Below the pieces are notes generated by a model. That model made no database searches and was not told the origin of the DNA. It saw only the letters and a list, made by a program, of their open reading frames with translations. Shown piece after piece: positions 9,713 to 30,808 of a DNA stretch of 64,000 bases; position 1 is the stretch's first letter; the number at the start of each line of letters is the position of its first letter. A program made the position numbers and the translations under genes. The DNA is from an uncultured Candidatus Saccharibacteria bacterium (lineage in GTDB: Bacteria; Patescibacteriota; Minisyncoccia; UBA6257; Colwellbacteraceae). The DNA lies in assembly GCA_964643135.1 (NCBI GenBank), contig CAZXPC010000001.1:39726-103725 (forward strand), read 5' to 3'.

Positions 9713-9857
9713 GAGGTGTCACCTCGTCAGTTACCGAATAACCACCCAAGGGGAAGCCTTGGCAGCATATCTTGACGGAGTAGTGTTGCTGTGTTACGAT
9801 GGCTCCACGCTAAGAAAGGGAGTAAATCCCCTAAATTGGCGGTAGGATTGACCCACT

Positions 9858-10499: not shown

Positions 10500-10711
10500 A
10501 GCCAACAACAGTTCTTCGAAGGACTAAGTCCTTCACCCCTATGACGGTTTCCACCAACATGGAAATCTCAAGGGGCTCTTTTTTATTCAGGGCTTGACAG
10601 TATATAAAAGATTGTGTTAACATATCGCCGTTCTTAGAACCTTAAGAAAGACATATTCTGGCTGGCGAAAGGGAGGTAATTACAAGCTTTATCTTACTTT
10701 CGCCCGTCAGG

Positions 10712-11344: not shown

Positions 11345-11495
11345 AGCTCGCACCCAAAAGTCCTGTGAAATATCAGGCACCCCGTCCTAGCGAAACCTAT
11401 CTACATGGGAATCGCTAGGCGGGCTCTTTTTTACTCAAAAATAAATTTCTTGCCAAAAGCTCTGTACGGGTGTAACCATTATAGAGAGGATAAGG

Positions 11496-11738
11496 ATGCC
11501 GGAACCCGCTCAAGAGCTGAAGAGGCTCATCCAAGATCTTGCCAAGGAACTTGGCCCGGAATACAGGATCATTCTGGTGACGCGCAAGGGGGTCCGTCGA
11601 TTCCTCTTCCTTGCGTTCCTAGTCATCTTTGCGGCTTTTGTGCTCGGGCACGTGGCCGGGATGACGCTTGCCCAGAAGGTTTGTGACGGCGGCTGGCTCG
11701 GCGACTTCGCGTACGGTAATTGTCCGCGGAAGCCTTAG
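11496..11738 (+). CDS. GC-rich island gene G3: small single-pass membrane protein
   Basis: 80 aa. GAGAGGA Shine-Dalgarno-like sequence 6-7 nt upstream. Hydrophobic helix FLFLAFLVIFAAFVLGHVAG. Hairpin plus GGGCCTTTTTT terminator at about 11768-11800. Confidence 0.45.
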   Translation: MPEPAQELKRLIQDLAKELGPEYRIILVTRKGVRRFLFLAFLVIFAAFVLGHVAGMTLAQKVCDGGWLGDFAYGNCPRKP

Positions 11739-11857
11739 CGCGGTCGCAAGCCACTCAGGGCACTGCCCCCCCGCTCCAAGATCTGGAACGGGCCTTTTTT
11801 ATTTTTGCTGCGCGGTTTTGATACTTTTGAGTTTTTCATATAATATGGAACTTACTT

Positions 11858-15144: not shown

Positions 15145-15146
15145 GA

Positions 15147-15557
15147 ATGAAAGCAAATTTCAAAATCAGCGCGCCGGTTATCTTAGGCCTAATAGTTCTG
15201 TCGGGGATCGGCGTTTATGTTTTTTTCGGCCAGCAATTATTTTCCAATGACTTGGCGTCGGCCAATAGCCAAAGCGCCGCAGTGGTGGTTACTATGAATA
15301 ACGATGCATATAGCTCGACTGATATCACTGTTAAGCAGGGCCAAGCGGTTAAGTTCGTAAATGAGTCAAACGAAGATTATTGGCCGGCTTCAAACATTCA
15401 CCCCGACCACACGATTTACCCGGAGTTCGACCCGAGGAGGCCGGTCCATCCCGGTGAGAGCTGGTCATTTAAATTCGACAAAATTGGCTCATGGCGCTTC
15501 CACGATCACTTACACTATCCAGATATCACGGGCGTCATCAACGTTGAGCCGAATTAG
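15147..15557 (+). CDS. Membrane-anchored cupredoxin-like (plastocyanin/amicyanin-fold) protein
   Basis: N-terminal TM helix. C-terminal H..H...H/H..P pattern (HPDHTIYPEFD ... WRFHDHLHYPDITGVINV) reminiscent of type-1 copper sites. Size is 136 aa. Confidence 0.5.
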   Translation: MKANFKISAPVILGLIVLSGIGVYVFFGQQLFSNDLASANSQSAAVVVTMNNDAYSSTDITVKQGQAVKFVNESNEDYWPASNIHPDHTIYPEFDPRRPVHPGESWSFKFDKIGSWRFHDHLHYPDITGVINVEPN

Positions 15558-16144
15558 GCTAATTTCTTCGAGACAACGCTCCAGTCGACGGCCTTCATAA
15601 AAGATTCGATGTAGTCGGCGCGTTTTAGGCCGTAGTCAGTTATGTAGGCGTGTTCAAAAACATCGATTGGCAGAAGTATCTGGCATCCGCCCAAGTGGCC
15701 TAAGTCGTGTTCGTTAATCCAAACATTGAACAATCGGTTAGCATCGGGGTCGTGGTAGAGAATCGCCCAGCCGATGCCGCGCATAGCAGCGGTTGTTTTG
15801 TAGTCGGTTTCCCAAGCTTCATATGAGCCAAAATCTTCAATGATTTTTTTATAGAGCGGAGATGAACTATCGATTGCCATGCCGCCGTTTTTCATCGCGC
15901 CAAAATAGTGCTCGTGGATGCGCATGCCGTTAAATTCCCAGCCGAAGCGGCGCTTTAGTTCGTTATATTCCGGTGACGACGGCGTACCCGCTTTAAGATC
16001 TTTGGATATAGCAGCCAGTTTCTCGAGCAGTGTGTTCACGTTTTTAACGTAGCCCTGATAAAGCGTGAAATGGTTTTTTAGTGCGGCGTCGCTAAAACCG
16101 GGAGTTCCTATTAATGAGTCGTAATTTTTTGGTGAGTATTGCAT
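15554..16144 (-). CDS. Superoxide dismutase, Fe/Mn family
   Basis: HHTKHH-equivalent N-terminal region (KNHFTLYQGYV). C-terminal DVFEHAYITDY matches the Fe/Mn-SOD D-x-WEHAYY signature. 196 aa. Confidence 0.9.
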   Translation of the reverse strand: MQYSPKNYDSLIGTPGFSDAALKNHFTLYQGYVKNVNTLLEKLAAISKDLKAGTPSSPEYNELKRRFGWEFNGMRIHEHYFGAMKNGGMAIDSSSPLYKKIIEDFGSYEAWETDYKTTAAMRGIGWAILYHDPDANRLFNVWINEHDLGHLGGCQILLPIDVFEHAYITDYGLKRADYIESFMKAVDWSVVSKKLA

Positions 16145-16249
16145 AGGGTTTATAAATTTGCTTTTTATTATACCATTTCTCTTGAAGACGTTCGCCTCAA
16201 AGAAGATTTACAAAAGAGCGGCGCTAAGGCTATAATAATTCAATAATTC

Positions 16250-16912
16250 ATGGCTGAAAAAGAGGAGGCAAAATCTAAGAATCAAGAACCTGCCGCCGCG
16301 GCAAAGAAGAGCAAACCGAAAGTTCCAAAATATCCTTTTACCCGCTGGGGTGCGGCTGTTTTGCATGAACCGACTAAGCCGGTTGAAATGAGTTACCTCA
16401 AAACTGGCGAGTTTCGAGACGTAACTAACCGGATGATTGCCAAACTCAAAGATACGGGCTGGGGATTGGCCGCTAACCAGATCGGTTTGCCGCTCAAAAT
16501 GGCTCTCGTTTGGATCGAACCGATTCCGAAACATCCTGAATTTCAGCCGCTTCCGCCGACATTCTTAATCAATCCAACTATTTTAGAGCGCTCGGAGGAA
16601 TTGCAGTATGGCTGGGAGGGCTGTCTCAGCTGCCCGGGTGTGCGTTTTTATATCCCGCGGCCGGAGTGGATAAAAGTTAAATATACCAATCAGAACGGCG
16701 AAGAAATTCAGGAACAGGTGGAGGGCCTTTGGTCAGTTTTGTATAGCCACGAGATCGACCATCTTTACGGCCGAGTTTGTGGGGAGCGAGTTATGACGGT
16801 TAACGGCGAGGTGGTTCAGGGCGCGATCGTTTCCGACTATGAATATTTCAAAAATCCTAGGAAAGTTCCGATGGGAGCTCTCGGCCTCGTAAAATCAGAA
16901 GAAATTAACTAA
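16250..16912 (+). CDS. def: Peptide deformylase (copy 1, Lys-rich N-terminal extension)
   Basis: Motif I GLAANQIGLPLKMALV. Motif II EGCLSCPG. Motif III HEIDHLYG. TATAAT box 11 nt upstream of ATG. Confidence 0.85.
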   Translation: MAEKEEAKSKNQEPAAAAKKSKPKVPKYPFTRWGAAVLHEPTKPVEMSYLKTGEFRDVTNRMIAKLKDTGWGLAANQIGLPLKMALVWIEPIPKHPEFQPLPPTFLINPTILERSEELQYGWEGCLSCPGVRFYIPRPEWIKVKYTNQNGEEIQEQVEGLWSVLYSHEIDHLYGRVCGERVMTVNGEVVQGAIVSDYEYFKNPRKVPMGALGLVKSEEIN

Positions 16913-16919
16913 ACAAAAA

Positions 16920-17534
16920 ATGGCCGCCAAGAAAAACAAAAGAGGTGACACGATCGGGCGTTTGCCGCAGTGGAATGATGACGTTTTAAGGAATTCCGCC
17001 AACGAAGTCCCTTTGGCCTATCTGAAGACGAGTGAATTTAAGAGTGTGGTCAAAAGAATGTTTTCGATGATTAAGTGGGCGGTCGGTTTAGCCGCCAACC
17101 AGATCGGCGTGCCGCTTCGGATAGCCGTTATTGAGATTAAGAGAACTGCAACTAGGCCGGACATTACGCCTGTTCCTCCGTCGGTGATTGTTAACCCGGT
17201 GATACTTAAATATTCTAAAGAGCTCCAGTACGGCTGGGAGGGTTGCATCAGCATGCCGCGGCCGGGTCTGTTTTTCTTTGTGCCGAGAGCGAAGCGCATC
17301 AAAGTCAGGTATTTTAATGAGAAGGGGGAAAAGGTAACTAAAGAGTTGAATGGGTTTCCGGCTATAGTTTTCCAGCACGAGATCGATCACTTGAATGGCA
17401 AGTTCTGCGGCGAGCAGGTTATGGTTTTAAACGGCCATGTTCCCAAAGGAGCCATTCTTACCAGAAAGGAATATAAGAAGAATCCTCGGCAGATTCCCGA
17501 GGGAGTTAGGCATCTGGTAAAAAAGTTAAATTAA
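16920..17534 (+). CDS. def: Peptide deformylase (copy 2, tandem paralog)
   Basis: GLAANQIGVPLRIAVI, EGCISMPR and HEIDHLNG motifs. Confidence 0.85.
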   Translation: MAAKKNKRGDTIGRLPQWNDDVLRNSANEVPLAYLKTSEFKSVVKRMFSMIKWAVGLAANQIGVPLRIAVIEIKRTATRPDITPVPPSVIVNPVILKYSKELQYGWEGCISMPRPGLFFFVPRAKRIKVRYFNEKGEKVTKELNGFPAIVFQHEIDHLNGKFCGEQVMVLNGHVPKGAILTRKEYKKNPRQIPEGVRHLVKKLN

Positions 17535-17539
17535 TTTGA

Positions 17540-19300
17540 ATGTTCACGACCGAGCATAAGACCTGTCAGAACTGCCGCCGGTCGTTTGACATAGATGGGG
17601 AAGACTTTGCGTTCTACGAAAAAATGAAAGTTCCGCCGCCAACCTGGTGCCCGGAGTGCCGCATGATCCGGCGCATGGCTTGGTGGAACGAGCGCAATCT
17701 TTTTAAGAAAAAAGATATTGACGGGAAAGTTATTTTCTCGGCTTACCCAGAAGAATCATATTTTAAGATCATCGATCGCGACGAGTGGTGGAAAGACAGC
17801 TTTGATGCTATGCAGTACGGCCGGGATTATGATTTTTCAAAGCCGTTTTTCCCGCAGCTGAAAAAACTGGCGGGCGAGGTGCCGTTTCCTTCGCGAGCTG
17901 GAACCAACTTGGTCAATTGCGACTACTGTAACAATTCCAACAATTCCAAGGATTGTTACATGTGTTTTAATGTCGATGAATGTGAAGATTGCATGTATAT
18001 GGTTTTTGCGAAGAAAAACAAGGACGCGATCGATGGTATTAGCGTTTACCAATGCGAATCTTGCTATGAAACCACGCTCTCGGGCATTAGCTATAAAAAT
18101 AATTTTGCATATCAATCGCCATATTGCCGCGATTCTTATTTTTTAAACTATTCGGATAATTGCAACAATTGTTTCGGTTCAGTAAATTTGCGGCACAAAG
18201 AATATTACATTTGGAACAAGCAGTATTCCAAAGAAGAATACTTTAAAAAGATAGAAGAATTTAATTTGGGTTCCCATGCTGCTCTGGAGAGCCTGAAGAA
18301 TAAATCAAAAGATTTTTTCTTGCGCTTTCCGTATCCATATATAAAAGTGTGGCACAACAGCGGAGTGATTACCGGGGATAATATATTCGAGTCAAAAAAT
18401 ATTAGAGATTCGTTTGCAATCGAAGAGGCTGAGAACCTGCGTTACTGCCAAAGCGCCGTCTTCGGCATCAGGGATTGTTACGACTATACGAATTTCGGCA
18501 ATAACGCCGAACTGATCTACGAATCGGTTGAATGCGGCGAATCGATCAGCAATTTGAAATTTTGTTTCGGCTGCTGGTCCAATTCGCGAAACTTGGAATA
18601 TTGTTTGAATTGCCATTCTTCGGAAGACTGCTTCGGCTGTGTCGGCCTGAAGAAAGCCAAGTACTGCATCTTTAACAAGCAGTATTCAAAGGAAGATTAC
18701 GAGAAACTTCGGGCGCGGATAATTGAGCAAATGAACAAAAACCCCTATCGGGACGCGAAGGGCCGGGTTTATAAATATGGGGAATTTATGCCGCCCGAAA
18801 TGGCGCCTTATGCGGCTAACGAGAGTGTTGTTGTCGACCGAAATCAGTTTGACCAGGATAAGGCGCTGTCTTATGGGCTTCGTTGGCGAGAAGTTGATCC
18901 GGTTGAATATAAGACAACCATTAATGCGGCCGATATGGCGGACCACATTAAAGATGTGTCTGATGGCGTAACTCAAGAACTAATTAGCTGTTTGAATTGC
19001 AAGCGGGCCTATCGAATTCTCCCGAAGGAATTGGATTTCTATCGGAGGTTGAACTTGCCCTTGCCGCGGCGTTGCCCGAATTGTCGTTACGAAGAGCGAA
19101 ACAAACAAAGAAATTACCTAAAACTCTATCCCGGCACGTGCCAGTGCGCCGGCGCGGCGTCAGGGAATAAAGTTTATAAGAATGCCGCCAGACACTTTCA
19201 TGGCGAAGAACCATGCCCGAATAAATTCGAGACAGCTCACGACCCAAAGGCGCAGAGGATTGTTTATTGCTTGGAATGCTACCATAAAGAATTGTTATAG
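17540..19300 (+). CDS. Cysteine-rich CxxC-repeat protein of unknown function (paralog B of 384-2141)
   Basis: 586 aa. Same architecture and motif order as 384-2141 (TCQNCRRSF, WCPECRMIRRMAWWNER, NCNNCFGSVNLRHKEYYIWNKQYSKEEY, YCLNCHSSEDCFGCVGLKKAKYCIFNKQYSKEDY, LDFYRRLNLPLPRRCPNCR, VYCLECYHKELL). Confidence 0.6.
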   Translation: MFTTEHKTCQNCRRSFDIDGEDFAFYEKMKVPPPTWCPECRMIRRMAWWNERNLFKKKDIDGKVIFSAYPEESYFKIIDRDEWWKDSFDAMQYGRDYDFSKPFFPQLKKLAGEVPFPSRAGTNLVNCDYCNNSNNSKDCYMCFNVDECEDCMYMVFAKKNKDAIDGISVYQCESCYETTLSGISYKNNFAYQSPYCRDSYFLNYSDNCNNCFGSVNLRHKEYYIWNKQYSKEEYFKKIEEFNLGSHAALESLKNKSKDFFLRFPYPYIKVWHNSGVITGDNIFESKNIRDSFAIEEAENLRYCQSAVFGIRDCYDYTNFGNNAELIYESVECGESISNLKFCFGCWSNSRNLEYCLNCHSSEDCFGCVGLKKAKYCIFNKQYSKEDYEKLRARIIEQMNKNPYRDAKGRVYKYGEFMPPEMAPYAANESVVVDRNQFDQDKALSYGLRWREVDPVEYKTTINAADMADHIKDVSDGVTQELISCLNCKRAYRILPKELDFYRRLNLPLPRRCPNCRYEERNKQRNYLKLYPGTCQCAGAASGNKVYKNAARHFHGEEPCPNKFETAHDPKAQRIVYCLECYHKELL

Positions 19301-19334
19301 AAATTAGGGTATATTTATATTATTATTCGAACCA

Positions 19335-20420
19335 ATGAAACTCCGTGAATACGAGGGTAAGGAACTTTTTAGGAAATATGGCATTGAGCCTCCCAAAGGA
19401 GAGCTTATTAATTCAACTTCCTCAGCGGTTTTAAAAGGGCCGGTGGTTTTGAAAGCCCAGGTTCTGTCGGGCGACCGCAAAAAGCACGGTGGAATTATAA
19501 TAACTAAGGAGAGTGATATTGGAAATAATATTGCGAAGCTTTTGGGTCGCGAGATTAACGGCGAAGTGGTGGAAAAGATATTAGTTGAGGAACTTATTGA
19601 TATTGCCGCCGAATATTATGCTTCGATTAGTTACGACACGGTTACGCGCGGGCCGGTTTTGGCGCTTAATGTTACTGGCGGGTCCGGCATCGAAAAGGCA
19701 GAAACATTTCCTTTGGATATCCTTGAAGCGACTATTCCAGAAAAATACCTAGAAACTATTCTTATTAAAACTGGTTTTCCAGCCAGTGATATCGCTGAAC
19801 TTTCCAAAATTATTCAAAACCTGTGGCAATTATTTATTAAAGAATATGCATTGCTCGCCGAGATTAACCCGATTTTTAAAACGAAAAGCGGCCACTTTGT
19901 CGCCGGGGATGCCAAAGTTATCCTAGATGATGAAAAAATCAATCCAAACGAACGAAGGTTTGTCTCAATGGGCGGGGATATTGCGATCTTGGCTTCCGGC
20001 GGCGGAGCGTCGATGCTTAATATGGACGCGCTTTTACACTATGGCGGCAAGCCTGCTAACTACACTGAATATTCTGGGAACCCGAAAGGTGAAGTAGTAA
20101 AAGAGCTCACAAAAAGGGTTCTGAGTCAGCCCGGCATAAATGGCTTGTGGGTTATCGGCGGTACGGCTAATTTTACAGATGTCTTTGAGACGCTTTCAGG
20201 GTTTGTGGAAGGTCTGGAGTCGCTTCCAGAGAAGCCTAAATACCCGATCGTAATTCGCCGTGATGGCCCGCGACAGAAAGAAGCGGCAGAGATGCTCAAG
20301 ATTTTCGCAGCCGAGAAGGGCTATGACATGCATATCTATGACCGAGAAATGCCGATGGAACAAAGCGCCAAGCTGATGGTTCAACTCGCAAATGAGTTCG
20401 CTCGTAAATCCAAAATCTAA
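19335..20420 (+). CDS. sucC: Succinyl-CoA synthetase beta-subunit-like ATP-grasp protein (SucC/AclB/CcsA family)
   Basis: MKLREYEGKELFRKYGI N-terminus typical of SucC. ATP-grasp region. 361 aa, slightly short. Confidence 0.75.
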   Translation: MKLREYEGKELFRKYGIEPPKGELINSTSSAVLKGPVVLKAQVLSGDRKKHGGIIITKESDIGNNIAKLLGREINGEVVEKILVEELIDIAAEYYASISYDTVTRGPVLALNVTGGSGIEKAETFPLDILEATIPEKYLETILIKTGFPASDIAELSKIIQNLWQLFIKEYALLAEINPIFKTKSGHFVAGDAKVILDDEKINPNERRFVSMGGDIAILASGGGASMLNMDALLHYGGKPANYTEYSGNPKGEVVKELTKRVLSQPGINGLWVIGGTANFTDVFETLSGFVEGLESLPEKPKYPIVIRRDGPRQKEAAEMLKIFAAEKGYDMHIYDREMPMEQSAKLMVQLANEFARKSKI

Positions 20421-20519
20421 AACCCAAATGACAAATCAAGCTCTAAACCCAAAATCCAAATATTTGTCATTAAATCATTTGAATTTGATTAGTCATTTAG
20501 ATTTTGTCATTTAATCACC

Positions 20520-21452
20520 ATGGCTATCCTCATAAACAAAGACACAAGGGTACTCATACAGGGAATAACTGGTTCCGAAGGCTCGCGCGCGTGTAAAGAG
20601 ATGCTCTCATACGGCACCAAAGTCGTGGCCGGCGTTACGCCCGGTAAAGGCGGGCAGGAGGTTGCGGCTCAATTCAATGGCGAGGAGAAAAGAGTCCCAG
20701 TGTACAACTCGGTCAAGGAAGCGCTTGAAAAGCACCCAGATATTAATGCCAGCCTAATCGCTGTGCCGGCCAAATTTATTCGTGGAGCTGCGCAAGAGGT
20801 GATTGTTTCTAGAATCCCGCTAATAAATATATTAGCAGACCACGTTACAGTCGAAGATTGCGCGCTGATTTACGCACTTGCTAAAAAAGCCGGTGTGCAA
20901 GTTATCGGTCCATCTTCGATTGGGATTATCTCTCCGGCTGAAGGCGTCAAGCTTGGCGCGATCGGAAGCGGTGAAACTAAAGACGTTTTTACTCCCGGCC
21001 CGGTTGGCATAATTTCAAAAAGTGGGGGAATGACGGCCGAAATTTCTTCTGTTCTCTCGCGCGCCGGAATGGGGCAGAGTACAGTTATTGGAATCGGCGG
21101 CGACCAGATAATCGGATCAGACTTCGCTGACATATTAAAACTTTTTAAGGACGATGTAGAAACAAAAGTAGTCGTGATCTTCGGCGAAGTCGGCGGCAGC
21201 TACGAAGAACAAATGGCCGACTATATTATTACGGAAAAATTCAATAAACCAGTTATCGCAGTTATCGCCGGCGCATTTTCGGAAAAACTGCCGAAAGAAA
21301 CTGTCTTGGGCCACGCCGGCGCGATTGTTTCTGGCGGAAAAGGGAGCTACAAGTCAAAAATCGAATCGCTCACCAAAGCGGGAGTCTATTTGCCCAAGAC
21401 ACTGGAAGAGATCCCGACCATCTCTAGACAGCTAAAGGTTGTTAAAGTATAA
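20520..21452 (+). CDS. sucD: Succinyl-CoA synthetase alpha-subunit-like CoA-binding protein (SucD/AclA-N/CcsB family)
   Basis: [12 protein letters not shown] ... [14 protein letters not shown] CoA-binding motif. Catalytic His motif [13 protein letters not shown]. Confidence 0.8.
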
Positions 21453-21459
21453 TTTACAC

Positions 21460-22113
21460 ATGGAGAAAAATGGATTTATAAATATATTTGTTTTGCTAGT
21501 TGCCCTTGTTATTATCGTGGCGGTTGGTGTTGGCGGATATTCCCTGATGAAAAATTCAGTGCCATCGGCTGATAAACAGAACCAACAGAATGGTCCCGTA
21601 CCGGGCACAGATACAGGGCTGTCGGCGAGCAATACTTTATTTTTTGACGCAGATTCACCGCCATTTATATATGCTAACTATGATTCTATTACCGTAAAAG
21701 AAAATCAGAAAATGGGAGGAACAGTATCTATCGAAAAAAGACTTGACGGAGAACTTTATATAGACGGCAAGAAAGTTATTTTATATTCTCCAGATCTAGA
21801 AACAGCTAAGAGTCGCAATGATGTTCGTGAGGAAGTTATAGGCAAAGTATCTCTTAATGCGAATGTTTATGATTTTCTTGGAATCCACCCCGAACTTATA
21901 CCGGAGAGTTGGAAAGCCAAAGATAGGCATGGCCTGGATCTCTTCGTCTACTTTTTCGGTACCATTTTCCAGGATTCTAGTGGCAGATTACTAGCTATTG
22001 AAGTTCACATTGATCCTGAGAATGGCCGGCTAGATCTTCTTTACATGCCACTCTTAGATACTTCGCCTTCAAGTCTCTGGTGTTCTAACTGTTACGCCGC
22101 CGTACTTGATTGA
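21460..22113 (+). CDS. AT-rich membrane-anchored hypothetical protein
   Basis: Likely start at ATG 21460 (MEKNGFINIFVLLVALVIIVAVGVGGYS TM helix). GC visibly lower than backbone. Confidence 0.45.
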   Translation: MEKNGFINIFVLLVALVIIVAVGVGGYSLMKNSVPSADKQNQQNGPVPGTDTGLSASNTLFFDADSPPFIYANYDSITVKENQKMGGTVSIEKRLDGELYIDGKKVILYSPDLETAKSRNDVREEVIGKVSLNANVYDFLGIHPELIPESWKAKDRHGLDLFVYFFGTIFQDSSGRLLAIEVHIDPENGRLDLLYMPLLDTSPSSLWCSNCYAAVLD

Positions 22114-22774
22114 AATAGAGAATCCTATAAATATGAATAAATATTATGTCTATGTCGGATTATCAATTATGGCGCTGGCTATCGCTGGCGGGGTTTTGAG
22201 TGCCAGAGCTTATACGCATCTTGGAGGATCTCTTGCTGTAAGAAATATCCAAGTGCAAAAGGGATGGTATTTGCTTGGGGATGGTAGCGATATTCCGGTG
22301 TCATTGGTTGATAAGGCTGAGTATGCTTATCAATATATGCCGTTATTAAATCGTTATATTACGATAAAACCCTTAAATGTTTATCAACAGGATGTTCAGA
22401 AAGCTGCAGCAGATTATAAGCCTATGGGTATAAATCTTACCGAGGATTCATTTGATAAAGAACTGTTTGGTTCAGTTTGGCTGTATTTTGATGAGCCATC
22501 CACGATTTCTTTTACTGTTTATAAAGGTTTAGAAGAACAAAATGACGGGGTGCAATATCTATTATCCGGCTGGAATTTAAAATACATTAATTATTCCATG
22601 ATCGGGAAAAAATTTAGTGAAACTTCCGGGAACTGTAAAATTGAGAAAGCCTATACTTATAATCCTAAGGATGGCTGGGTGAAACTGTTAGACGGGTTGC
22701 AGCCAATCGATCAGGAGTCGCTTGGGTCCGGTTTCGCGGTTAAAGTTCAAGATGCCTGCGAAATGAAGATATAG
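22106..22774 (+). CDS. AT-rich membrane-anchored hypothetical protein
   Basis: N-terminal TM helix YVYVGLSIMALAIAGGVL. Overlaps the previous ORF by 8 nt. Confidence 0.45.
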   Translation: MIEIENPINMNKYYVYVGLSIMALAIAGGVLSARAYTHLGGSLAVRNIQVQKGWYLLGDGSDIPVSLVDKAEYAYQYMPLLNRYITIKPLNVYQQDVQKAAADYKPMGINLTEDSFDKELFGSVWLYFDEPSTISFTVYKGLEEQNDGVQYLLSGWNLKYINYSMIGKKFSETSGNCKIEKAYTYNPKDGWVKLLDGLQPIDQESLGSGFAVKVQDACEMKI

Positions 22775-23060
22775 GATGCTCAGAGAATAACGCCCATCCC
22801 AGCGATTTTTACCGAATAAAAATAATAATTAAATTTATGAAGAGGATTATATTAATAATTGTTCTGGTGGTAGTAGTCGGTGCGATTGGTTGGTATCTCT
22901 GGACCGTGATGAATCCCAATCATCTTCCGCCAGCATTCCCGAATTAACTTTCGAAGCATTCCTTAAAGAAGGCGAGTGTATATCTGCCCAAGACGTTGGA
23001 GGATATGCGAGCCATCTTAAGAAGTCTGATTTAGGCCCATAAATATTGGGTTTTTGGCTC

Positions 23061-23090
23061 TTGACAGAGTTGGGTTATTAATGGTATAAT
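23061..23090 (+). promoter_or_regulatory. Sigma-70-type promoter TTGACA-N18-TATAAT driving island gene G4
   Basis: Consensus -35 and perfect -10. GGAG sequence follows 8 nt before ATG 23111. Confidence 0.55.
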
Positions 23091-23110
23091 TGACCTTGGA
23101 GAATCCAAAC

Positions 23111-23401
23111 ATGACAGCCGTACCTTCCACCGCAGATGCGAACGTCGTCGGCCGAAAGTTCCTCGAGAAAGTCCTCACCGCCAGAGCGAGGGAAATGCTC
23201 GGCGGCACCTATGATGTGCCAGAAACTGCACCGGGGCATCCTGTTGGCCAGATCGCGGGAGCGGTCGATAAGCTCTGCTCATCGCTCGGCGAAGAGGACA
23301 AGCGCGTCGTCTCAGGCCTTCTGGAGGATATGGTCCTTGCCGAGGTCAAAGCACGCTTCGCCACGTACAATGCTGGACTTGGCAAGACCGGCAAGAAGTA
23401 G
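23111..23401 (+). CDS. GC-rich island gene G4: small soluble protein of unknown function
   Basis: 96 aa from ATG 23111 (the ORF-track start at 23090 is TTG). GC3-rich codons. Hairpin plus GGGCCTTTTTTA terminator at about 23440-23470. Confidence 0.5.
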   Translation: MTAVPSTADANVVGRKFLEKVLTARAREMLGGTYDVPETAPGHPVGQIAGAVDKLCSSLGEEDKRVVSGLLEDMVLAEVKARFATYNAGLGKTGKK

Positions 23402-23484
23402 CATGGTTCGCACTCCCGCCTAGGCACATTTTGTGCCACCCGAACGTTTCGACGTCTCGGGCCTTTTTTATTTCAAAGAAATAT

Positions 23485-23514
23485 CCCCTTTATTGACGAT
23501 CGTAAATAAAGGGG
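23485..23514. promoter_or_regulatory. 30-bp perfect interrupted palindrome CCCCTTTATT-gacgatcgta-AATAAAGGGG immediately upstream of a TATAAT box (about 23521)
   Basis: 10-bp perfect inverted arms around a CGATCG-centred spacer, seen directly in sequence. Confidence 0.4.
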
Positions 23515-23577
23515 ATCGGGTATAATGATGTCAGACACACTATTTACCAATTATTATTTAACGACTACTATTAAGTT

Positions 23578-24321
23578 ATGCAAAAGTGGAAAACGGGGAT
23601 AAGTACTCATAAGAACGGCGAACTGCACGTAAGGGGGGAAAAGCTGATCGACATGATTGGCAAGGCGAGTTTTGCGGACACGGCGTTTTTTGTAATGTCC
23701 GGGCGAATGCCGAACAAGAAAGAATCGGTCATGTGGAATGCTATTTTAACTGCCGCAGTCGAGCATGGCGTTGAAGCGCCGTCGGCTTTTGTCGCAAGAA
23801 CTGTCGCTTCAACTGGTAATCAATTTAACGCGGCGCTCGCGGCCGGAGTTTTGGCGATGGGCAATTGGCACGCCGGAGCAATAGAGAAATGCGCGGAGAT
23901 TTTGCAAACTGCGATTGCGGACAAGAAATCGGCCAAGTCGATTGCCTATGAAACGATTTCCAAGGGCGAGCGACTCTCGGGTTATGGCCATAAGGTCTAC
24001 AAAGACGCCGACCCAAGAACAGCCAAAATATTAGAAGTTGCGAAGAAAAATAAATTTGAAGGTGCGCATATAAAATTGGCGCTAGAAATCGAAAAGCATT
24101 TAGAAAAAGAAAGCGGGAAGCATTTGCCACTAAACATTGATGGCATTATTGCGGCGGTGATTTCTGACCTCGGCCTCGACTGGAGAATCGGCAAAGGAAT
24201 TTTTGCGTATGCGCGTATGCCGGGGCTTATTGCGCACATCCATGAAGAGATGGTCAACGAAAAACCTTACCGCCGCCTCGAAGAAGATGATGTTGAATAT
24301 ACGGGTCCGGAAGTTGTATAA
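23578..24321 (+). CDS. Short citrate-synthase-like protein (catalytic C-terminal domain only; citryl-CoA lyase/Ccl-like)
   Basis: 247 aa. GYGHKVYKDADPRTAKILEVA matches the citrate synthase G(F/Y)GH.VY..DPR motif. WHAGAIEK corresponds to the HGGA.E catalytic His region. The N-terminal large domain of canonical citrate synthase is absent. Confidence 0.7.
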   Translation: MQKWKTGISTHKNGELHVRGEKLIDMIGKASFADTAFFVMSGRMPNKKESVMWNAILTAAVEHGVEAPSAFVARTVASTGNQFNAALAAGVLAMGNWHAGAIEKCAEILQTAIADKKSAKSIAYETISKGERLSGYGHKVYKDADPRTAKILEVAKKNKFEGAHIKLALEIEKHLEKESGKHLPLNIDGIIAAVISDLGLDWRIGKGIFAYARMPGLIAHIHEEMVNEKPYRRLEEDDVEYTGPEVV

Positions 24322-28833: not shown

Positions 28834-28866
28834 AAAAAGCGTCCCGTTCTACGGGGCGCTTTTTGA
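28834..28866 (+). terminator. Intrinsic terminator after fusA
   Basis: Stem AGCGTCCCG / CGGGGCGCT with 5-nt loop followed by TTTT. Confidence 0.55.
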
Positions 28867-28870
28867 CCTC

Positions 28871-28898
28871 TTGACGAATTATTTTAGATCAGTATACT
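28871..28898 (+). promoter_or_regulatory. Promoter-like TTGACG-N16-TATACT upstream of island gene G5, followed by a 150-nt leader with an 8-bp inverted repeat AATTTGAG/CTCAAATT (about 28918-28942)
   Basis: Hexamers and inverted repeat seen in sequence. Confidence 0.4.
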
Positions 28899-29056
28899 AG
28901 CAAGTCTGTTCTTTATAAATTTGAGTTACTAAACCTCAAATTCTGCGGTGGACAGAAGGAGATTTCTTCTAAGAAGCCTCTTCCTGCCCCCGCGGAATTT
29001 GTGTGTTTCGAGCCTCACGGCTTGAGATACGCGGATGATGCGGTTCCCAGTCAGCA

Positions 29057-29842
29057 ATGAAAGGGGACGATGGACATATGGGGATGTCCACCGAAAAACG
29101 ATGGAGTCGATACAACATGTCGCCTGCGACCCAGACCACCACGACGCCGATCCGCAAGACCGTTGACGTCAGCGCCGAAGCGATCCGCGAGGACGCGATC
29201 AGCCAGTTCCGCGCGACCCAGAAGCAGCCGCAGTTCAAGGCCATCATCGGCCAAGTCCTGCCGGCCGGGACGCTCGAGAACATGAGCCGCTCGATCCAGC
29301 AGTCGCGCGCCAGCACGCTCACGGGCATCGTCGGCGTTCAGGAGGGCAACCTCCCGATCGTACTGCACCTGCCCAGCCACGTGCTCTCGCTCTGCGACCG
29401 CCTCGCGATCGCGAACGGCGGCAAGCTCGAGAACGTGCCGACCTGGATCAACCAGGTCCAGCGCCGCACCCCCTGGGCCATGATGCCCGAGGGGCAGCTC
29501 CAGGGAACGACCGACTTCGACCTCCAGGGCGTGCCGACCGTCAACATCACGACGGAGATCCGCACCTGCCAGGCCGAGAAGCGCAGCTTCCCGACGACCG
29601 AGCAGCTCGTCGACGCGATCAACGCCGCGCGGGCCAAGGCGCAGCACGACGACGAGGAGTTCGTCCTCGTCGGCAAGACGTTCCTCGCGTTCGGCGACAT
29701 CGCCGGCCAGGGCTACACGCCGACCATCACGGTCGGCGAGGACACCCAGACGCTCGGCCGCGTGCCGTTCGTCGAAGGCGAGGAGCTCGAAGACGAGGCC
29801 GTGCTCGCGAACTACGACACGGTCTACGGCTTCTCCAGCTGA
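29057..29842 (+). CDS. GC-rich island gene G5: soluble protein of unknown function
   Basis: 261 aa. Roughly 65% GC with about 90% GC3 (cgc/gcg/atc/ctc/gag/ggc codons). AAGGGG SD-like sequence upstream. Perfect 11-bp stem GGACCTAGATT/AATCTAGGTCC plus T6 terminator at about 29868-29930. Antisense ORFs 28969-29328 and 29051-29899 are shadow ORFs. Confidence 0.6.
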   Translation: MKGDDGHMGMSTEKRWSRYNMSPATQTTTTPIRKTVDVSAEAIREDAISQFRATQKQPQFKAIIGQVLPAGTLENMSRSIQQSRASTLTGIVGVQEGNLPIVLHLPSHVLSLCDRLAIANGGKLENVPTWINQVQRRTPWAMMPEGQLQGTTDFDLQGVPTVNITTEIRTCQAEKRSFPTTEQLVDAINAARAKAQHDDEEFVLVGKTFLAFGDIAGQGYTPTITVGEDTQTLGRVPFVEGEELEDEAVLANYDTVYGFSS

Positions 29843-30006
29843 ACCCGCCCCCGTGTGCGTCCCAATCGGACCTAGATTAAAGCAATAAGAGTCTTGCACT
29901 CTGAGCTAACAATCTAGGTCCACTTTTTTACTCAAAAATATTGACTTAGATTTTCGCTGGTATAATATTATGTCGCGGGAGACATTCCGCTGTGAGGTAC
30001 GCAAAA

Positions 30007-30225
30007 ATGAAGACAGGAATTGTATTGGCACTGGGAGCAATGCTCGCGCTCACGTTCGTGACCATGGCCATTGCCCAGCCCGCTCAGGCTGAAGCAGGGA
30101 GAGTGTGCTATGTTGGTCCCACATGGATAGCTGACCAGCAGTACACGCAGGGCTGGGTCGCATGCTGTCCGGACGAGAGCGACCCTACCACCTGTGGTTA
30201 CGGCGGCTACTGGGTCAAGACCTAG
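30007..30225 (+). CDS. GC-rich island gene G6: small secreted cysteine-rich peptide (72-aa precursor, about 44-aa mature)
   Basis: Start at ATG 30007 (the ORF-track start at 29992 is GTG). Signal peptide MKTGIVLALGAMLALTFVTMAIAQPAQA/EAG. Mature part has 4 Cys (VCYVGP...ACCPDESDPTTCGYGGYWVKT). GAGGT SD 9 nt upstream. Hairpin plus T6 after stop. Confidence 0.5.
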   Translation: MKTGIVLALGAMLALTFVTMAIAQPAQAEAGRVCYVGPTWIADQQYTQGWVACCPDESDPTTCGYGGYWVKT

Positions 30226-30568
30226 TAGATCCAAAGGTCCACAATATCGACACGGTGTCTTTTTTCCTCTCACAACGCCCGAATGAAAGCTCTTAGAGCA
30301 ATTAAGTCGGGTTTATTTTTATCCGGCAATTTCTAAACGGCAAACGGCAACTCATTTTATAGGCGAGCGAGTTACTTTAGATCGGACTTCGAGCGCTGAT
30401 CTTTGTATTTCGGGGTGCCCCGTTGCGAAGCAATGGGGAGCGCAGCGACGGATGGCGAAGCGAAAACCGCAACGCGAGTTTGAGCGAGAGACTATCCGGT
30501 AAGCGAGCAGTTATCCACACCCATAACAATTTAAAGATGTTTTGGACAAGTTTTTTATCTTTCCACAG

Positions 30569-30596
30569 TTGACAGAGAGACGCACTCTAATATAGA
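30569..30596 (+). promoter_or_regulatory. Promoter-like TTGACA-N16-TATAGA about 210 nt upstream of tuf
   Basis: Consensus -35. Sits at the end of a 570-bp non-coding gap. Confidence 0.35.
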
Positions 30597-30808
30597 ATTA
30601 GAAACCTTAAGTCGCAAAGACTTAATCTTTGATAACTGTTGGAAATTTCGTTCATCTTTTGAGCGAGACGAAGTGAAAATTTTGATGCATACAAGAAGCT
30701 TGTACGCTGAAAAATTTTTGCAAAGTCGCAGCCAAAATATGGACGGAAGTGACAAAGTTGTTATCGAAGAATAAGTCTAAATATTAATTAACCAAATTTA
30801 GCAAAACT

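What the first reader, a model, noticed from the sequence alone, without database searches (positions are those of the whole stretch)
23060..23470. Island B: single GC-rich cassette (G4) with textbook TTGACA-N18-TATAAT promoter, GGAG SD and hairpin-T terminator inserted between sucD-like and citrate-synthase-like genes
This is a 96-aa soluble protein with GC3-rich codons, flanked upstream by two AT-rich membrane-protein genes (21460-22774) that are also compositionally deviant in the opposite direction. The whole 21.45-23.5 kb stretch therefore looks like an insertion hotspot that splits a sucC-sucD-Ccl-like metabolic unit.
Basis: partly seen in the sequence, partly recalled or inferred. Interest (0 to 1): 0.55.

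Follow-up and report, generated by a model that had tools for sequence, protein, structure and literature searches.

The report
Orphan GC-rich gene splitting citrate-lyase operon
A small gene with no known relatives, carrying its own strong promoter and terminator, sits between two metabolic genes that are back-to-back in most related ultra-small (CPR) bacteria; it is a real lineage-specific add-on of unknown function, one of several GC-rich orphan genes filling a few recurring gaps in this group's genomes.

Summary
TTGACA-N18-TGgTATAAT (23061-23090) is the only perfect sigma-70 match in 64 kb (0.01 expected). GGAG lies 9 nt before the ATG of a 96-codon ORF (23111-23401), followed by two hairpins and CCT6 (23423-23469).

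G4 is compositionally deviant: GC 0.595 against 0.476±0.030 for other genes. The two membrane genes upstream deviate towards AT.

The insertion reading is supported. ccsB and ccl lie 3-12 nt apart in five of the seven closest lineages and are compact in every genome- or metagenome-scan locus with at least 58.5% CcsB identity. Two independent assemblies confirm both junctions.

New points:
- G4 is a true orphan, with no credible homologue among 1.84 billion representatives.
- "Island B" is at least two events. The AT-rich block is bracketed by a duplicated ccsB 3' end (relic at 22951-23034); G4 lies outside it.
- Two relatives carry a different GC-rich orphan module in the same slot.
- GC-richness is weak evidence of recent transfer here. 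An orthologue of another GC-rich orphan (A1) keeps GC3 0.74-0.82 at 26% identity.

Verdict: a moron-like accessory module in a chromosome; protein function unknown.

The parts
19335..20420 (+). ccsA-like gene (ATP-grasp plus citrate-binding subunit); upstream part of the split metabolic unit
   Evidence: Pfam ATP-grasp_2 (1.4e-30) and Citrate_bind (1.1e-23).
20520..21452 (+). ccsB-like gene (sucD-like CoA-binding/ligase subunit). Its last ~28 codons (about 21367-21452) are the left copy of the duplicated 3' end.
   Evidence: Pfam CoA_binding and Ligase_CoA. Direct repeat 21375-21428.
21425..21453 (+). Promoter-like site TAGACA-N17-TATAAT inside the end of ccsB, placed to drive TM1
   Evidence: 11/12 match. 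A consensus match only.
21460..22113 (+). TM1: AT-rich orphan with one N-terminal membrane anchor (217 aa)
   Evidence: GC3 0.33, z = -3.3. No Pfam, PHROGs, PADLOC or NCBIfam hit. No tblastn hit in the roughly 160 related loci tested. Singleton cluster.
22133..22774 (+). TM2: AT-rich orphan with one N-terminal membrane anchor (213 aa; other gene calls start at 22169)
   Evidence: GC3 0.36, z = -2.8. No family hits. Not similar to TM1.
22837..22947 (+). sTM: 36-codon hydrophobic mini-ORF at the right end of the AT-rich block
   Evidence: Read from the sequence. Only sub-threshold Pfam hits.
22951..23034 (+). Relic (non-functional duplicate) of the ccsB 3' end, reading [27 protein letters not shown]. 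It marks the right edge of the AT-rich insertion and the former end of ccsB.
   Evidence: 54-nt repeat at 72% identity. Translation. tblastn of CcsB against the whole window: second-best hit 22957-23028, E = 8e-4; against the intergenic stretch alone E = 6e-7 (2e-8 with the L169 C-terminus). Nucleotide alignment score 24 against 7.9 +/- 1.3 in shuffles.
23061..23090 (+). G4 promoter: TTGACA-N18-TATAAT with an extended -10 TG
   Evidence: 12/12. Unique in the window, 0.01 expected.
23098..23101 (+). GGAG Shine-Dalgarno, 9 nt before the ATG. The predicted transcription start (about 23097-23099) puts it at the very 5' end of the mRNA.
   Evidence: Sequence. The start-site position is inferred from the -10 hexamer.
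23111..23401 (+). G4 ORF: 96 aa, pI 7.9, predicted three helices, orphan
23423..23469 (+). Two-hairpin intrinsic terminator ending in CCTTTTTT
23483..23516 (+). 34-nt near-perfect palindrome (17-nt arms, 94% complementary) in the remaining native spacer. It overlaps a TTGACG and is followed by TATAAT (23521-23526), but the spacing is 22 nt, which is non-canonical.
   Evidence: (I5). Long inverted repeats also fill the ccsB|ccl spacer of L003, L007 and L009.
23578..24321 (+). ccl-like gene (short citrate-synthase-fold lyase), now separated from ccsB by 2125 nt
   Evidence: Pfam Citrate_synt C-terminal domain, 1.7e-42. Synteny.

Best explanation
G4 is a genuine, self-contained single-gene transcription unit lodged in the chromosome of a CPR/Patescibacteria bacterium; the closest named relative is Candidatus Colwellbacteria.

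How it is predicted to work (inferred from sequence, not measured):
- A near-perfect sigma-70 promoter with an extended -10 starts a roughly 370-nt monocistronic mRNA at about 23097-23099.
- GGAG at the 5' end of that mRNA recruits the ribosome to the ATG at 23111.
- A 96-residue, non-secreted, probably three-helix protein is made.
- A double-hairpin/U6 terminator stops transcription at about 23469.

The unit sits in what used to be the very short spacer between ccsB and ccl. It therefore uncouples ccl from ccsAB; ccl must now depend on its own signals or on read-through.

In evolutionary terms it is a moron-like accessory module. It belongs to a clade-wide class of GC-rich, self-transcribed orphan genes without family matches. 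These occupy a few recurring intergenic slots: upstream of aspS, ccsB|ccl, and fusA|tuf. Where orthologues can be recognised they are very divergent.

The AT-rich TM1-TM2-sTM block next to it is a separate insertion, made through the ccsB 3' end and leaving a duplicated relic.

The biochemical role of the protein is unknown. It has no catalytic motif, is small and helical, and lies in a slot whose occupant differs between lineages. My best guess, at low confidence (about 0.2), is a binding or regulatory protein involved in conflict or host interaction rather than in citrate metabolism.
For: Signals and ORF.

Coding frame: GC1/2/3 = 0.66/0.45/0.67 and an ordinary amino-acid composition, whereas the overlapping frames read like R/S/P-rich off-frame products. 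The whole mRNA is not unusually structured (z = -1.1).

Not an assembly artefact: two Logan assemblies (SRR8931233, SRR8931234) are 100% identical to the window across both junctions, over 14062-23803 and 19510-23871.

Extra DNA relative to kin:
- ccsB to ccl is 3-12 nt in L163, L165, L167, L171 and L172.
- It is 94 nt in the Colwellbacteria loci L003 and L083-L085.
- It is 2125 nt in the window.

Orphan status: only itself in the 5.8-billion-protein word-indexed search. Only itself plus three repeat-driven spurious hits in the exhaustive search of 1.84 billion representatives. Nothing in Pfam, PHROGs, PADLOC, NCBIfam, PDB sequences, PDB folds, phage records or viral contigs.

Class membership:
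- Five other GC-rich orphan ORFs lie on the + strand of the window. By eye each has its own promoter-like site and a hairpin-T6 terminator, though most promoter sites fall short of consensus.
- L168 and L169 carry one GC-rich orphan (GC 0.59 and 0.56 in genomes of 0.445), with a TTGACA promoter and a T7 terminator, in the same ccsB|ccl slot.
- The scaffold of island A is orthologous across genomes, and A1 has a 26%-identical orthologue that is still GC3-rich.

Separate origin of the AT-rich block.
Against: - No expression data: the promoter, start site, terminator and translation are all sequence predictions.
- G4 is short, so its GC3 deviation alone is modest (z = 2.2).
- The structure model is of low confidence (pLDDT 56), so "three-helix" is tentative and fold searches are uninformative.
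- Placing G4 in one class with the other GC-rich modules rests on shared architecture and composition, not on sequence homology. The other modules' promoter and terminator sites were mostly read by eye, not scored.
- No homology to the L168/L169 occupants of the slot could be shown.
- No mobility gene or recombination site explains how the module arrived.
Confidence: 0.65

Rival explanations
1. Recent horizontal acquisition from a GC-rich donor (host, plasmid or phage). On this view G4's composition is a donor signature that has not yet drifted towards host composition. This is the reading implied by the first reader.
For: G4 is GC-rich, and its codon usage is the most deviant among the window's genes apart from the other GC-rich orphans. 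It is absent from five of the seven nearest lineages. The parsimonious reading of the CcsB tree is a gain on the window's branch.
Against: - No donor-side homologue exists among 1.84 billion representative proteins or in the viral and phage collections.
- The GC-rich stretch coincides with the ORF (GC profile), while the promoter, SD and T-tract terminator are of the same type as those next to native genes.
- In the same clade the GC-rich orphan A1 is vertically inherited, only 26% identical between genomes, and still has GC3 0.74-0.82 against backgrounds of 0.54 and 0.40. High GC is therefore maintained in at least one member of this gene class and does not date arrival.
Confidence: 0.2
2. 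G4 is a positional orthologue of the L168/L169 slot gene that has diverged beyond recognition. This implies one ancient insertion at ccsB|ccl, extreme sequence divergence, and several later precise losses.
For: - Same slot, same strand, similar size (96, 108 and 129 aa), the same architecture and the same GC excess.
- The L168 and L169 proteins are only 50% identical to each other where CcsB is 86% identical.
- A1 orthologues are 26% identical at the window-to-L168 distance. At that rate a 96-aa protein would be undetectable.
- By eye there is weak colinear motif resemblance: ...GG(T/D)(Y/F)... then SL.E(D)..R(V/I)V.
Against: - No statistical support: BLASTP finds no alignment, hhalign probability is 0.4%, Smith-Waterman shuffles give p = 0.06 and 0.31, and the flanking scaffolds are not similar.
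- pI differs: 7.9 against 4.7 and 5.0.
- The tree requires at least three independent deletions, each restoring a 3-12 nt spacer. The compact state is also seen in outgroups.
Confidence: 0.25
3. Not a real gene: a chance ORF in GC-rich DNA, an assembly chimera, or a non-coding RNA locus.
For: It is an orphan with no homologue and no conservation evidence. GC-rich DNA produces long spurious ORFs, and three overlapping ORFs of 53-95 aa exist here. One weak sub-threshold Rfam hit lies on the opposite strand (sR32, 21 bits against a threshold of 40).
Against: - Two independent assemblies give identical sequence through both junctions.
- A unique 12/12 promoter, a correctly spaced SD and ATG, and a terminator bracket exactly this ORF.
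- The codon-position GC pattern and amino-acid composition are protein-like only in this frame.
- The mRNA is not unusually structured, and no Rfam family reaches its threshold.
Confidence: 0.05
4. Remnant or solitary component of a toxin-antitoxin or defence module, like those that occupy the same spacer in other CPR lineages.
For: In Microgenomates/Daviesbacteria-type loci the ccsB|ccl spacer holds BrnT/CopG-antitoxin, PIN, MNT/HepT and Phd/ParE pairs. G4 has the size of an antitoxin or a small toxin.
Against: It is a single gene with no partner ORF. There is no PADLOC, Pfam or NCBIfam hit even at permissive thresholds. It has no Rx4-6H (HEPN) motif and no obvious ribbon-helix-helix or AbrB features in the sequence or the model.
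Confidence: 0.07

Closest known systems
Phage 'morons' (autonomous accessory transcription units such as HK97 gene 15; review PMC3594210)
   Same: It is an obvious addition between two genes that are adjacent in relatives. Its GC content differs from that of its neighbours. It has its own promoter and its own terminator, holds a single small gene, and the product is often an orphan (definition quoted).
   Different: Morons are defined in phage and prophage genomes. G4 sits among housekeeping genes (def, ccsAB, ccl, tRNA-Pro, rpsL, rpsG, fusA, tuf) with no phage gene nearby and no viral relatives. In this clade the compositional offset looks maintained rather than a trace of transfer.
Chromosomal hotspots and flexible genomic islets in streamlined genomes; genomic islands reported in Patescibacteria (PMC12455944)
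   Same: The insertion site recurs between conserved core genes, the content varies between lineages, and many inserted genes are hypothetical. Hundreds of islands are reported in Patescibacteria genomes.
   Different: The unit here is tiny, a single gene of about 410 bp, with no integrase, tRNA or insertion-sequence hallmark of its own. From my own knowledge (Daubin & Ochman 2004; Rocha & Danchin 2002, not checked here), orphan and acquired genes are usually AT-richer than their host. TM1 and TM2 fit that rule; G4 and its class do the opposite.
Integron gene cassettes
   Same: Small single-gene units stacked head to tail at a fixed site, as in islands A and C. Junction sequences partly recur: the exact 17-mer TTTTTTACTCAAAAATA occurs at two junctions in the window, and its first 15 bases recur at one junction in L163.
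   Different: No attC-type site and no intI or attI was seen in the stretch inspected (14-28 kb). Cassettes are normally promoterless, whereas each module here has its own promoter-like site and terminator. The recurring junction is a terminator T-tract plus an A-tract, which may simply serve as an UP-like element.
Type II toxin-antitoxin cassettes occupying the same ccsB|ccl spacer in other CPR lineages
   Same: Same landing site, small size and autonomous expression.
   Different: G4 is a single gene and matches no toxin or antitoxin family.
Integrative elements that target the 3' end of a gene and carry a replacement end (relevant to the neighbouring AT-rich block, not to G4)
   Same: The TM1-TM2-sTM block is flanked by an imperfect direct repeat made of the ccsB 3' end. 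One copy completes the gene and the other is a displaced relic.
   Different: No integrase or other mobility gene is present in the 1.6-kb block. The repeats are only 72% identical, so the event is old or the donor was divergent.

Membership tests
Moron (phage accessory transcription unit) | Own promoter | tested here: met
   12/12 sigma-70 consensus with an extended -10; unique in 64 kb against 0.01 expected. Sequence prediction only.
Moron (phage accessory transcription unit) | Own terminator | tested here: met
   Two hairpins plus CCU6; -25.1 kcal/mol, z = -2.8; retained in the fold of the full mRNA.
Moron (phage accessory transcription unit) | [quoted passage not shown] | tested here: met
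   GC 0.595 against 0.476 +/- 0.030 (maximum 0.535). Codon bias B = 0.628, above every background gene.
Moron (phage accessory transcription unit) | Lies between genes that are adjacent in related genomes | tested here: met
   ccsB to ccl is 3-12 nt in L163, L165, L167, L171 and L172, and 94 nt in L003 and L083-L085.
Moron (phage accessory transcription unit) | Resides in a phage or prophage genome | tested here: not met
   The neighbours are housekeeping genes. There are no PHROGs hits and no phage or viral relatives. It is therefore moron-like in architecture but not a moron in the strict sense.
Integron gene cassette | attC recombination site at the 3' end of the cassette | tested here: not met
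   The only inverted repeats downstream of the ORF are the terminator hairpins and the 34-nt palindrome at 23483-23516. Nothing attC-like is shared with the other modules.
Integron gene cassette | Adjacent intI integrase and attI | tested here: not met
   No integrase-like domain among the genes called over roughly 14-24 kb, in the flanking ORFs scanned, or, by reading, in the ORFs between 17 and 28 kb. The rest of the window was not scanned against Pfam.
Integron gene cassette | Cassette normally lacks its own promoter | tested here: not met
   G4 has the strongest promoter match in the window.
Type II toxin-antitoxin module | Two adjacent co-transcribed small genes | tested here: not met
   Exactly one ORF lies between the promoter and the terminator.
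Type II toxin-antitoxin module | Match to a known toxin or antitoxin family | tested here: not met
   No Pfam, PADLOC or NCBIfam hit.
3'-end-targeting integrative element (for the TM1-TM2-sTM block) | Direct repeat formed by the duplicated 3' end of the target gene | tested here: met
   21375-21428 against 22969-23022, 72% identical. The relic translates to a CcsB C-terminus ending at a stop codon. E = 6e-7 locally and 8e-4 against the whole window.
3'-end-targeting integrative element (for the TM1-TM2-sTM block) | Integrase or recombinase encoded within the element | tested here: not met
   TM1 and TM2 have no Pfam hits and sTM only sub-threshold ones, and there is no room for a further gene.
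Citryl-CoA synthetase/lyase (Ccs/Ccl) or split ATP-citrate-lyase unit (flanking genes) | Domain set: ATP-grasp + citrate-binding; CoA-binding + CoA-ligase; short citrate-synthase-fold protein | tested here: met
   Pfam hits. The three genes are contiguous in 38 of 73 related loci.
Citryl-CoA synthetase/lyase (Ccs/Ccl) or split ATP-citrate-lyase unit (flanking genes) | Citrate-cleaving enzymatic activity | not testable with these tools
   Requires biochemistry.

The most novel reading that the evidence does not exclude
G4 may be one occupant of a clade-wide arrangement that I did not find described in a brief literature search. In it, a few fixed intergenic slots in these streamlined CPR genomes hold self-transcribed, GC-rich orphan genes that diverge very quickly. 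The slots seen so far are upstream of aspS, between ccsB and ccl, and between fusA and tuf.

On this reading the 10-20 point GC excess is actively maintained rather than being a footprint of recent transfer. Candidate causes are recombination-driven GC-biased gene conversion or selection. Slot content turns over, and partly conserved terminator-promoter junctions may act as the seams.

Such genes would be candidates for the fast-changing interface between the symbiont and its host or its parasites.
Probability: 0.3. Interest if true: 0.65.

Novelty: new member of a known kind. Interest (0 to 1): 0.4.

Why it matters
For annotation, this case shows that a compositional island in a CPR genome need not be a recent transfer. 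A GC-rich orphan here (A1) is inherited vertically, has diverged to 26% identity, and still keeps its GC excess. Composition-based detection of horizontal transfer would mislabel such a gene.

For biology, CPR bacteria depend on other cells and have very small genomes. Genes that they keep as separately promoted, insulated units in recurring slots, and whose sequence or identity differs between lineages, are good candidates for host-interaction or conflict functions, which are otherwise hard to find.

For metabolism, the insertion separates ccl from ccsAB behind a strong predicted terminator. The citrate-cleaving unit in this lineage must therefore be regulated differently from that of its relatives.

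Tried and rejected
- **Homology searches for G4.** I searched the word-indexed 5.8-billion-protein database, the exhaustive 1.84-billion-representative set, Pfam, PHROGs, PADLOC and NCBIfam, PDB sequences, phage records by tblastn and viral contigs. Nothing credible emerged. The three weak hits are long repeat proteins matched over a 25-39-residue stretch (BRC-repeat-like by my reading). I rejected them as repeat-inflated.
- **Structure.** The single-sequence AlphaFold2 model has pLDDT 56. Foldseek against the PDB gave no hit with E below 0.6, and afdb50 was unavailable. I draw nothing from the scattered WXG100/EsxB-like hits: G4 has no tryptophan and all these hits have E above 0.6.
- **Homology of G4 to the L168/L169 slot genes.** BLASTP, hhalign, Smith-Waterman with shuffles, and comparisons of the 5' and 3' scaffolds were all non-significant. 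The question stays open.
- **Paralogy among the window's island proteins.** None found.
- **Closer relatives.** The genome and metagenome scans gave nothing closer than 72% CcsB identity. The protein search plus contig look-ups reached 80%. No same-species empty site was found.
- **Non-coding RNA reading.** No Rfam family reaches threshold, and the mRNA is not unusually structured.
- **Shared recombination site at module borders.** Only the T-tract/A-tract junction recurs. There is no attC-like element and no target-site duplication around G4.
- **Phage origin of TM1 and TM2.** No viral relatives.
- **Source study.** A literature look-up of the sequencing run SRR8931233 found nothing.
- **A canonical ccl promoter downstream of G4.** TTGACG and TATAAT are 22 nt apart, so this is not convincing.
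Full report
**1. What is there**

The window is a stretch of a CPR/Patescibacteria chromosome. It carries rpsL, rpsG, fusA, tuf, a ribosomal-protein cluster, aspS, two def genes and one tRNA-Pro. The closest named relative by CcsB is a Candidatus Colwellbacteria genome at 72% identity.

- Promoter: TTGACA (23061-23066), an 18-nt spacer whose 3' end carries TG (23082-23083), and TATAAT (23085-23090). It scores 12/12. It is the only exact match in 64 kb on either strand, against 0.01 expected from shuffles, and the only 12/12 site in a whole-window scan.
- Shine-Dalgarno: GGAG (23098-23101), 9 nt before the ATG at 23111.
- ORF: ends at 23401, 96 aa.
- Terminator: two hairpins followed by CCU6. 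The region folds at -25.1 kcal/mol with z = -2.8, and the hairpins survive in a fold of the whole predicted mRNA.

With the -10 hexamer ending at 23090, transcription should start at about 23097-23099. The SD would then sit at the extreme 5' end of a roughly 370-nt monocistronic mRNA. This is inference.

**2. Composition**

I used 64 non-overlapping background ORFs for comparison. Their GC is 0.476 ± 0.030 (maximum 0.535) and their GC3 is 0.537 ± 0.062.
- G4 has GC 0.595 and GC1/2/3 of 0.66/0.45/0.67. It exceeds every background gene in total GC, but its GC3 is only 2.2 sd high.
- Its synonymous codon usage is further from the window average than that of any background gene (B = 0.628 against a maximum of 0.568). 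It also exceeds a null in which the same protein is encoded with host codon usage (p ≈ 0.007). Examples: GTC accounts for 8 of 11 Val codons, and TTA/TTG are never used for Leu.
- TM1 and TM2 are the most AT-shifted genes in the window, with GC3 0.33 and 0.36 (z = -3.3 and -2.8).

**3. It is real DNA in this place**

The 96-aa protein is found on two independently assembled Logan contigs, from SRR8931233 and SRR8931234, in the same context. Those contigs are 100% identical to the window over 14062-23803 and 19510-23871. They therefore run through both junctions of G4 and of the AT-rich block. An assembly chimera is very unlikely.

**4. It is extra DNA**

The flanking genes are a citryl-CoA-synthetase/lyase-like (split ATP-citrate-lyase-like) trio. 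Pfam gives ATP-grasp_2 + Citrate_bind, CoA_binding + Ligase_CoA, and a short citrate-synthase-fold protein.

I scanned species-representative genomes and metagenomes with CcsB.
- Of 73 loci with both genes, 38 have a ccsB-ccl gap of 250 nt or less, and 33 have a gap above 400 nt.
- All 17 loci with at least 58.5% CcsB identity are compact, at 181 nt or less.

A protein search found closer relatives at 71-80% identity, whose contigs I retrieved. L163/L164, L165/L166, L167, L171 and L172 have spacers of 3-12 nt between the ccsB stop and the ccl start. In the window the gap is 2125 nt. TM1, TM2, sTM and G4 have no tblastn match in any of the roughly 160 loci tested.

**5. The junction is a recurrent landing site**

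In the more distant Microgenomates/Daviesbacteria-type loci the same spacer holds varied small cassettes. Pfam on representatives confirms four kinds of toxin-antitoxin component:
- BrnT with a CopG-type antitoxin;
- PIN;
- nucleotidyltransferase with HepT;
- Phd with ParE.

**6. "Island B" is at least two events**

The repeat finder reported a 54-nt direct repeat at 72% identity. One copy (21375-21428) lies inside the 3' end of ccsB. The other (22969-23022) lies just upstream of the G4 promoter.

In the right frame, 22951-23034 reads [27 protein letters not shown]. This is a decayed copy of the CcsB C-terminus, [32 protein letters not shown]. The match is significant:
- tblastn of CcsB against the whole window gives this as the second-best hit, E = 8e-4;
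- against the intergenic stretch alone, E = 6e-7;
- with the L169 C-terminus as query, E = 2e-8;
- the nucleotide alignment scores 24 against 7.9 ± 1.3 in shuffles.

The AT-rich TM1-TM2-sTM block is therefore bracketed by a duplicated ccsB 3' end. That is the signature of integration through the end of the gene, by a Campbell-type or site-specific route. No integrase remains.

G4 starts 26 nt after the relic's stop codon. It lies outside that bracket, in what was the original ccsB|ccl spacer. Downstream of its terminator the remaining spacer contains a 34-nt near-perfect palindrome at 23483-23516. Long inverted repeats also fill the short spacers of L003, L007 and L009, so this part is probably native.

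**7. What G4 encodes**

G4 is an orphan.
- The word-indexed search of 5.8 billion proteins returned only itself.
- The exhaustive HMMER search of 1.84 billion representatives returned itself plus three weak hits. These are repetitive proteins of 244-1779 aa, each matched in 3-7 stretches, the best covering only 25-39 residues of G4. I regard them as spurious.
- There are no hits in Pfam, PHROGs, PADLOC, NCBIfam, PDB sequences, phage records or viral contigs.

A single-sequence AlphaFold2 model predicts three helices (8-30, 44-58, 61-93), but with pLDDT 56. Foldseek finds nothing significant. The protein has no signal peptide, pI 7.9 and no catalytic motif that I can recognise.

The coding frame is supported by the codon-position GC pattern, an ordinary amino-acid composition, and the way the expression signals bracket exactly this ORF. 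The overlapping ORFs look like off-frame products. The RNA as a whole is not unusually structured, and no Rfam family reaches its threshold.

**8. G4 is one of a class**

The window has five more GC-rich orphan ORFs, all on the + strand.

| Module | Coordinates | Location |
|---|---|---|
| A1 | 9858-10499 | between mnmA and aspS |
| A2 | 10712-11344 | between mnmA and aspS |
| A3 | 11496-11738 | between mnmA and aspS |
| C1 | 29057/29078-29842 (GC3 0.93) | between fusA and tuf |
| C2 | 30007-30225 | between fusA and tuf |

By eye, each has its own promoter-like site and a hairpin followed by T6; most of the promoter sites fall short of consensus. None has a significant family match, and C1 is also an orphan in the large database.

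The exact 17-mer TTTTTTACTCAAAAATA occurs at the A2/A3 and C1/C2 junctions. Its first 15 bases were searched for and recur at a module junction in relative L163, and in no other of the 167 loci then held.

**9. The class is old and stays GC-rich**

Relatives show the same pattern in genomes of about 44.5% GC.
- L163 and L168 have GC-rich genes (0.54-0.62) without significant Pfam matches upstream of aspS.
- L170, a 50.6% GC locus, has one too (0.59), where the excess is less striking.

Parts of the island A scaffold are clearly orthologous:
- the A1 terminator aligns with L168 1600-1655 (score 32 against 7.1 ± 1.2 in shuffles);
- the A3 promoter and leader align with L163 142-215 and L168 1995-2070 (scores 29 and 21 against about 8 ± 1.5).

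A1 itself has an orthologue in L168. It lies on the + strand at 921-1559 and is 212 aa, with the same signal-peptide "PANL" motif and a similar cysteine-containing C-terminus ending ...CG(G). It is 26% identical to A1 (E = 4e-7), whereas CcsB is 74% identical. Its GC3 is 0.82 in a genome whose background GC3 is about 0.40. A1 has GC3 0.74 against a background of 0.54.

At 26% protein identity I would expect synonymous sites to be saturated. The GC excess must then be maintained by some gene-specific force and is not a fading donor signature. This weakens the usual inference "GC-deviant, therefore recently transferred" for G4.

**10. The same slot in relatives**

L168 (73% CcsB identity) and L169 (75%) each carry exactly one GC-rich orphan between ccsB and ccl. 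The proteins are 129 and 108 aa, with GC 0.587 and 0.563. The TTGACA promoter abuts or overlaps the ccsB stop codon, and a hairpin-T7 terminator follows the ORF. The two proteins are 50% identical to each other, while their CcsB proteins are 86% identical.

I could show no homology to G4.
- BLASTP finds no alignment.
- hhalign gives a probability of 0.4%.
- Smith-Waterman against shuffles gives p = 0.06 and 0.31.
- The flanking non-coding parts are not significantly similar.

A CcsB neighbour-joining tree places the window basal to (L165,(L171,((L168,L169),(L163,L167)))). One ancestral insertion would need at least three precise losses, whereas independent gains need two events. I favour independent gain for G4. 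However, given the divergence seen for A1, a diverged orthologue cannot be excluded.

**11. How it most likely works**

- Shown: the sequence elements, their uniqueness, the deviant composition, the orphan status, the physical linkage to both neighbours, the absence from most relatives, and the separate origin of the AT-rich block.
- Inferred: strong constitutive transcription, a 12-14-nt leader, translation of a small helical cytoplasmic protein, and efficient termination that insulates ccl. The terminator implies that ccl has lost co-transcription with ccsAB. I found no canonical ccl promoter: TTGACG and TATAAT are 22 nt apart.
- Function: unknown. My low-confidence guess is a binding or regulatory protein with a role in conflict or host interaction. 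This rests on its small size, the lack of any catalytic motif, its autonomous expression, and a slot whose occupant differs between lineages.

**12. Comparison with known things**

In architecture G4 meets four of the five defining features of a phage moron as described in PMC3594210: own promoter, own terminator, deviant GC, and a position between genes that are adjacent in relatives. It fails the fifth, because it is not in a phage.
- It is not an integron cassette: there is no attC or intI, and it has its own promoter.
- It is not a toxin-antitoxin module: it is a single gene with no family match.
- Genomic islands are already documented in Patescibacteria (PMC12455944).

I therefore file G4 as a new member of a known kind, a lineage-specific accessory orphan islet. 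The less ordinary observation is the clade-wide, persistently GC-rich, fast-diverging gene class in recurring slots. That deserves follow-up, but it rests on only a handful of genomes.

Noticed in passing
window 22951-23034 (with 21375-21452): A decayed duplicate of the last ~28 codons of ccsB ([27 protein letters not shown]) lies between the AT-rich membrane-gene block and the G4 promoter. The AT-rich block is therefore bracketed by a duplicated gene end. This is an integration signature, but no integrase is present.
   Followed up: yes
window 9776-11830 (A1 9858-10499, A2 10712-11344, A3 11496-11738): Three tandem GC-rich orphan genes lie between mnmA and aspS. By eye each has its own promoter-like site and hairpin-T6 terminator. 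A1 and A2 have signal peptides and cysteine-rich C-termini; A3 is a small membrane protein. The A1 terminator and the A3 promoter are orthologous to elements in L163 and L168, and A1 has a 26%-identical orthologue in L168 that is still GC3-rich (0.82).
   Followed up: partly
window 28862-30275 (C1 29057/29078-29842, C2 30007-30225): Two GC-rich orphan modules interrupt the normally contiguous fusA-tuf pair. C1 has an extreme GC3 of 0.93 in a 48% GC genome, a leader of about 160-180 nt, and no homologue in the 5.8-billion-protein search. C2 is a small secreted cysteine-containing peptide.
   Followed up: partly
window 11427-11443 and 29924-29940; L163 142-156: The exact 17-mer TTTTTTACTCAAAAATA occurs at two module junctions in the window (terminator T-tract, then A-tract, then the next -35). 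Its first 15 bases recur at a module junction in the closest relative and in none of the other 166 loci then held. It may be a seam for module exchange, or just a terminator with an UP-like element.
   Followed up: partly
window 23483-23526: A 34-nt near-perfect palindrome (ATCCCCTTTATTGACGA/TCGTAAATAAAGGGGAT) lies just upstream of a TATAAT before ccl. It may be an operator or a hairpin. Unrelated long inverted repeats fill the ccsB|ccl spacer in L003, L007 and L009.
   Followed up: no
L012, L013, L019, L023, L025, L027, L028, L032-L034, L119, L132 and others (ccsB|ccl gap): In Microgenomates/Daviesbacteria-type CPR genomes the same spacer holds different small cassettes: BrnT/CopG-antitoxin, PIN, MNT/HepT and Phd/ParE pairs. 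A recurring pair, a 77-82-aa protein with a 115-119-aa protein that looks retropepsin-like by eye, has no Pfam match.
   Followed up: partly
L168 10969-11358 and L169 5771-6097: A family of acidic, GC-rich orphan proteins (129 and 108 aa, 50% identical, pI about 4.7-5.0) occupies the ccsB|ccl slot in two relatives. Each has a TTGACA promoter abutting or overlapping the ccsB stop codon.
   Followed up: yes
L168 867-1625: The public gene call on the minus strand (252 aa) is probably a GC-rich off-strand artefact. The plus-strand ORF 921-1559 is the orthologue of window A1.
   Followed up: yes
L163 1214-1326 (also by eye in L168 and L170) versus window 11800-11857: Relatives have a T-box-like leader upstream of aspS. 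It is sub-threshold in Rfam (35 bits against a gathering score of 93; local E = 1.5e-6) and carries the motif GGGTGGCACCGCG. The window has only about 60 nt with a plain promoter-like site there, so the leader seems to have been lost.
   Followed up: partly
window 17540-19300: A 586-aa cysteine-rich protein with many CxxC pairs, no Pfam match and ordinary composition sits between def and ccsA. In L165 those two genes are adjacent, and no related locus has a homologue. This looks like another lineage-specific insertion.
   Followed up: partly
L165 10835-11368: In a relative with 78% CcsB identity, fusA is followed by a 177-aa ORF with a serine-recombinase 'Recombinase' domain (Pfam 5e-6) and its own terminator. 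The DNA downstream of fusA is therefore variable in kin too. Whether tuf lies beyond is unknown, because the contig ends.
   Followed up: no
window 23578-24321: The window's Ccl is only 53-56% identical to every relative, including those whose CcsB is 78-81% identical. Within the sister clade, Ccl identities are 70-84%. The cause is either faster evolution after separation from ccsAB or replacement by a divergent copy.
   Followed up: no
window 30280-30800: About 500 nt upstream of tuf contain no convincing ORF and no Rfam match. A promoter-like TTGACA-N18-TAGAAT lies at 30569.
   Followed up: no
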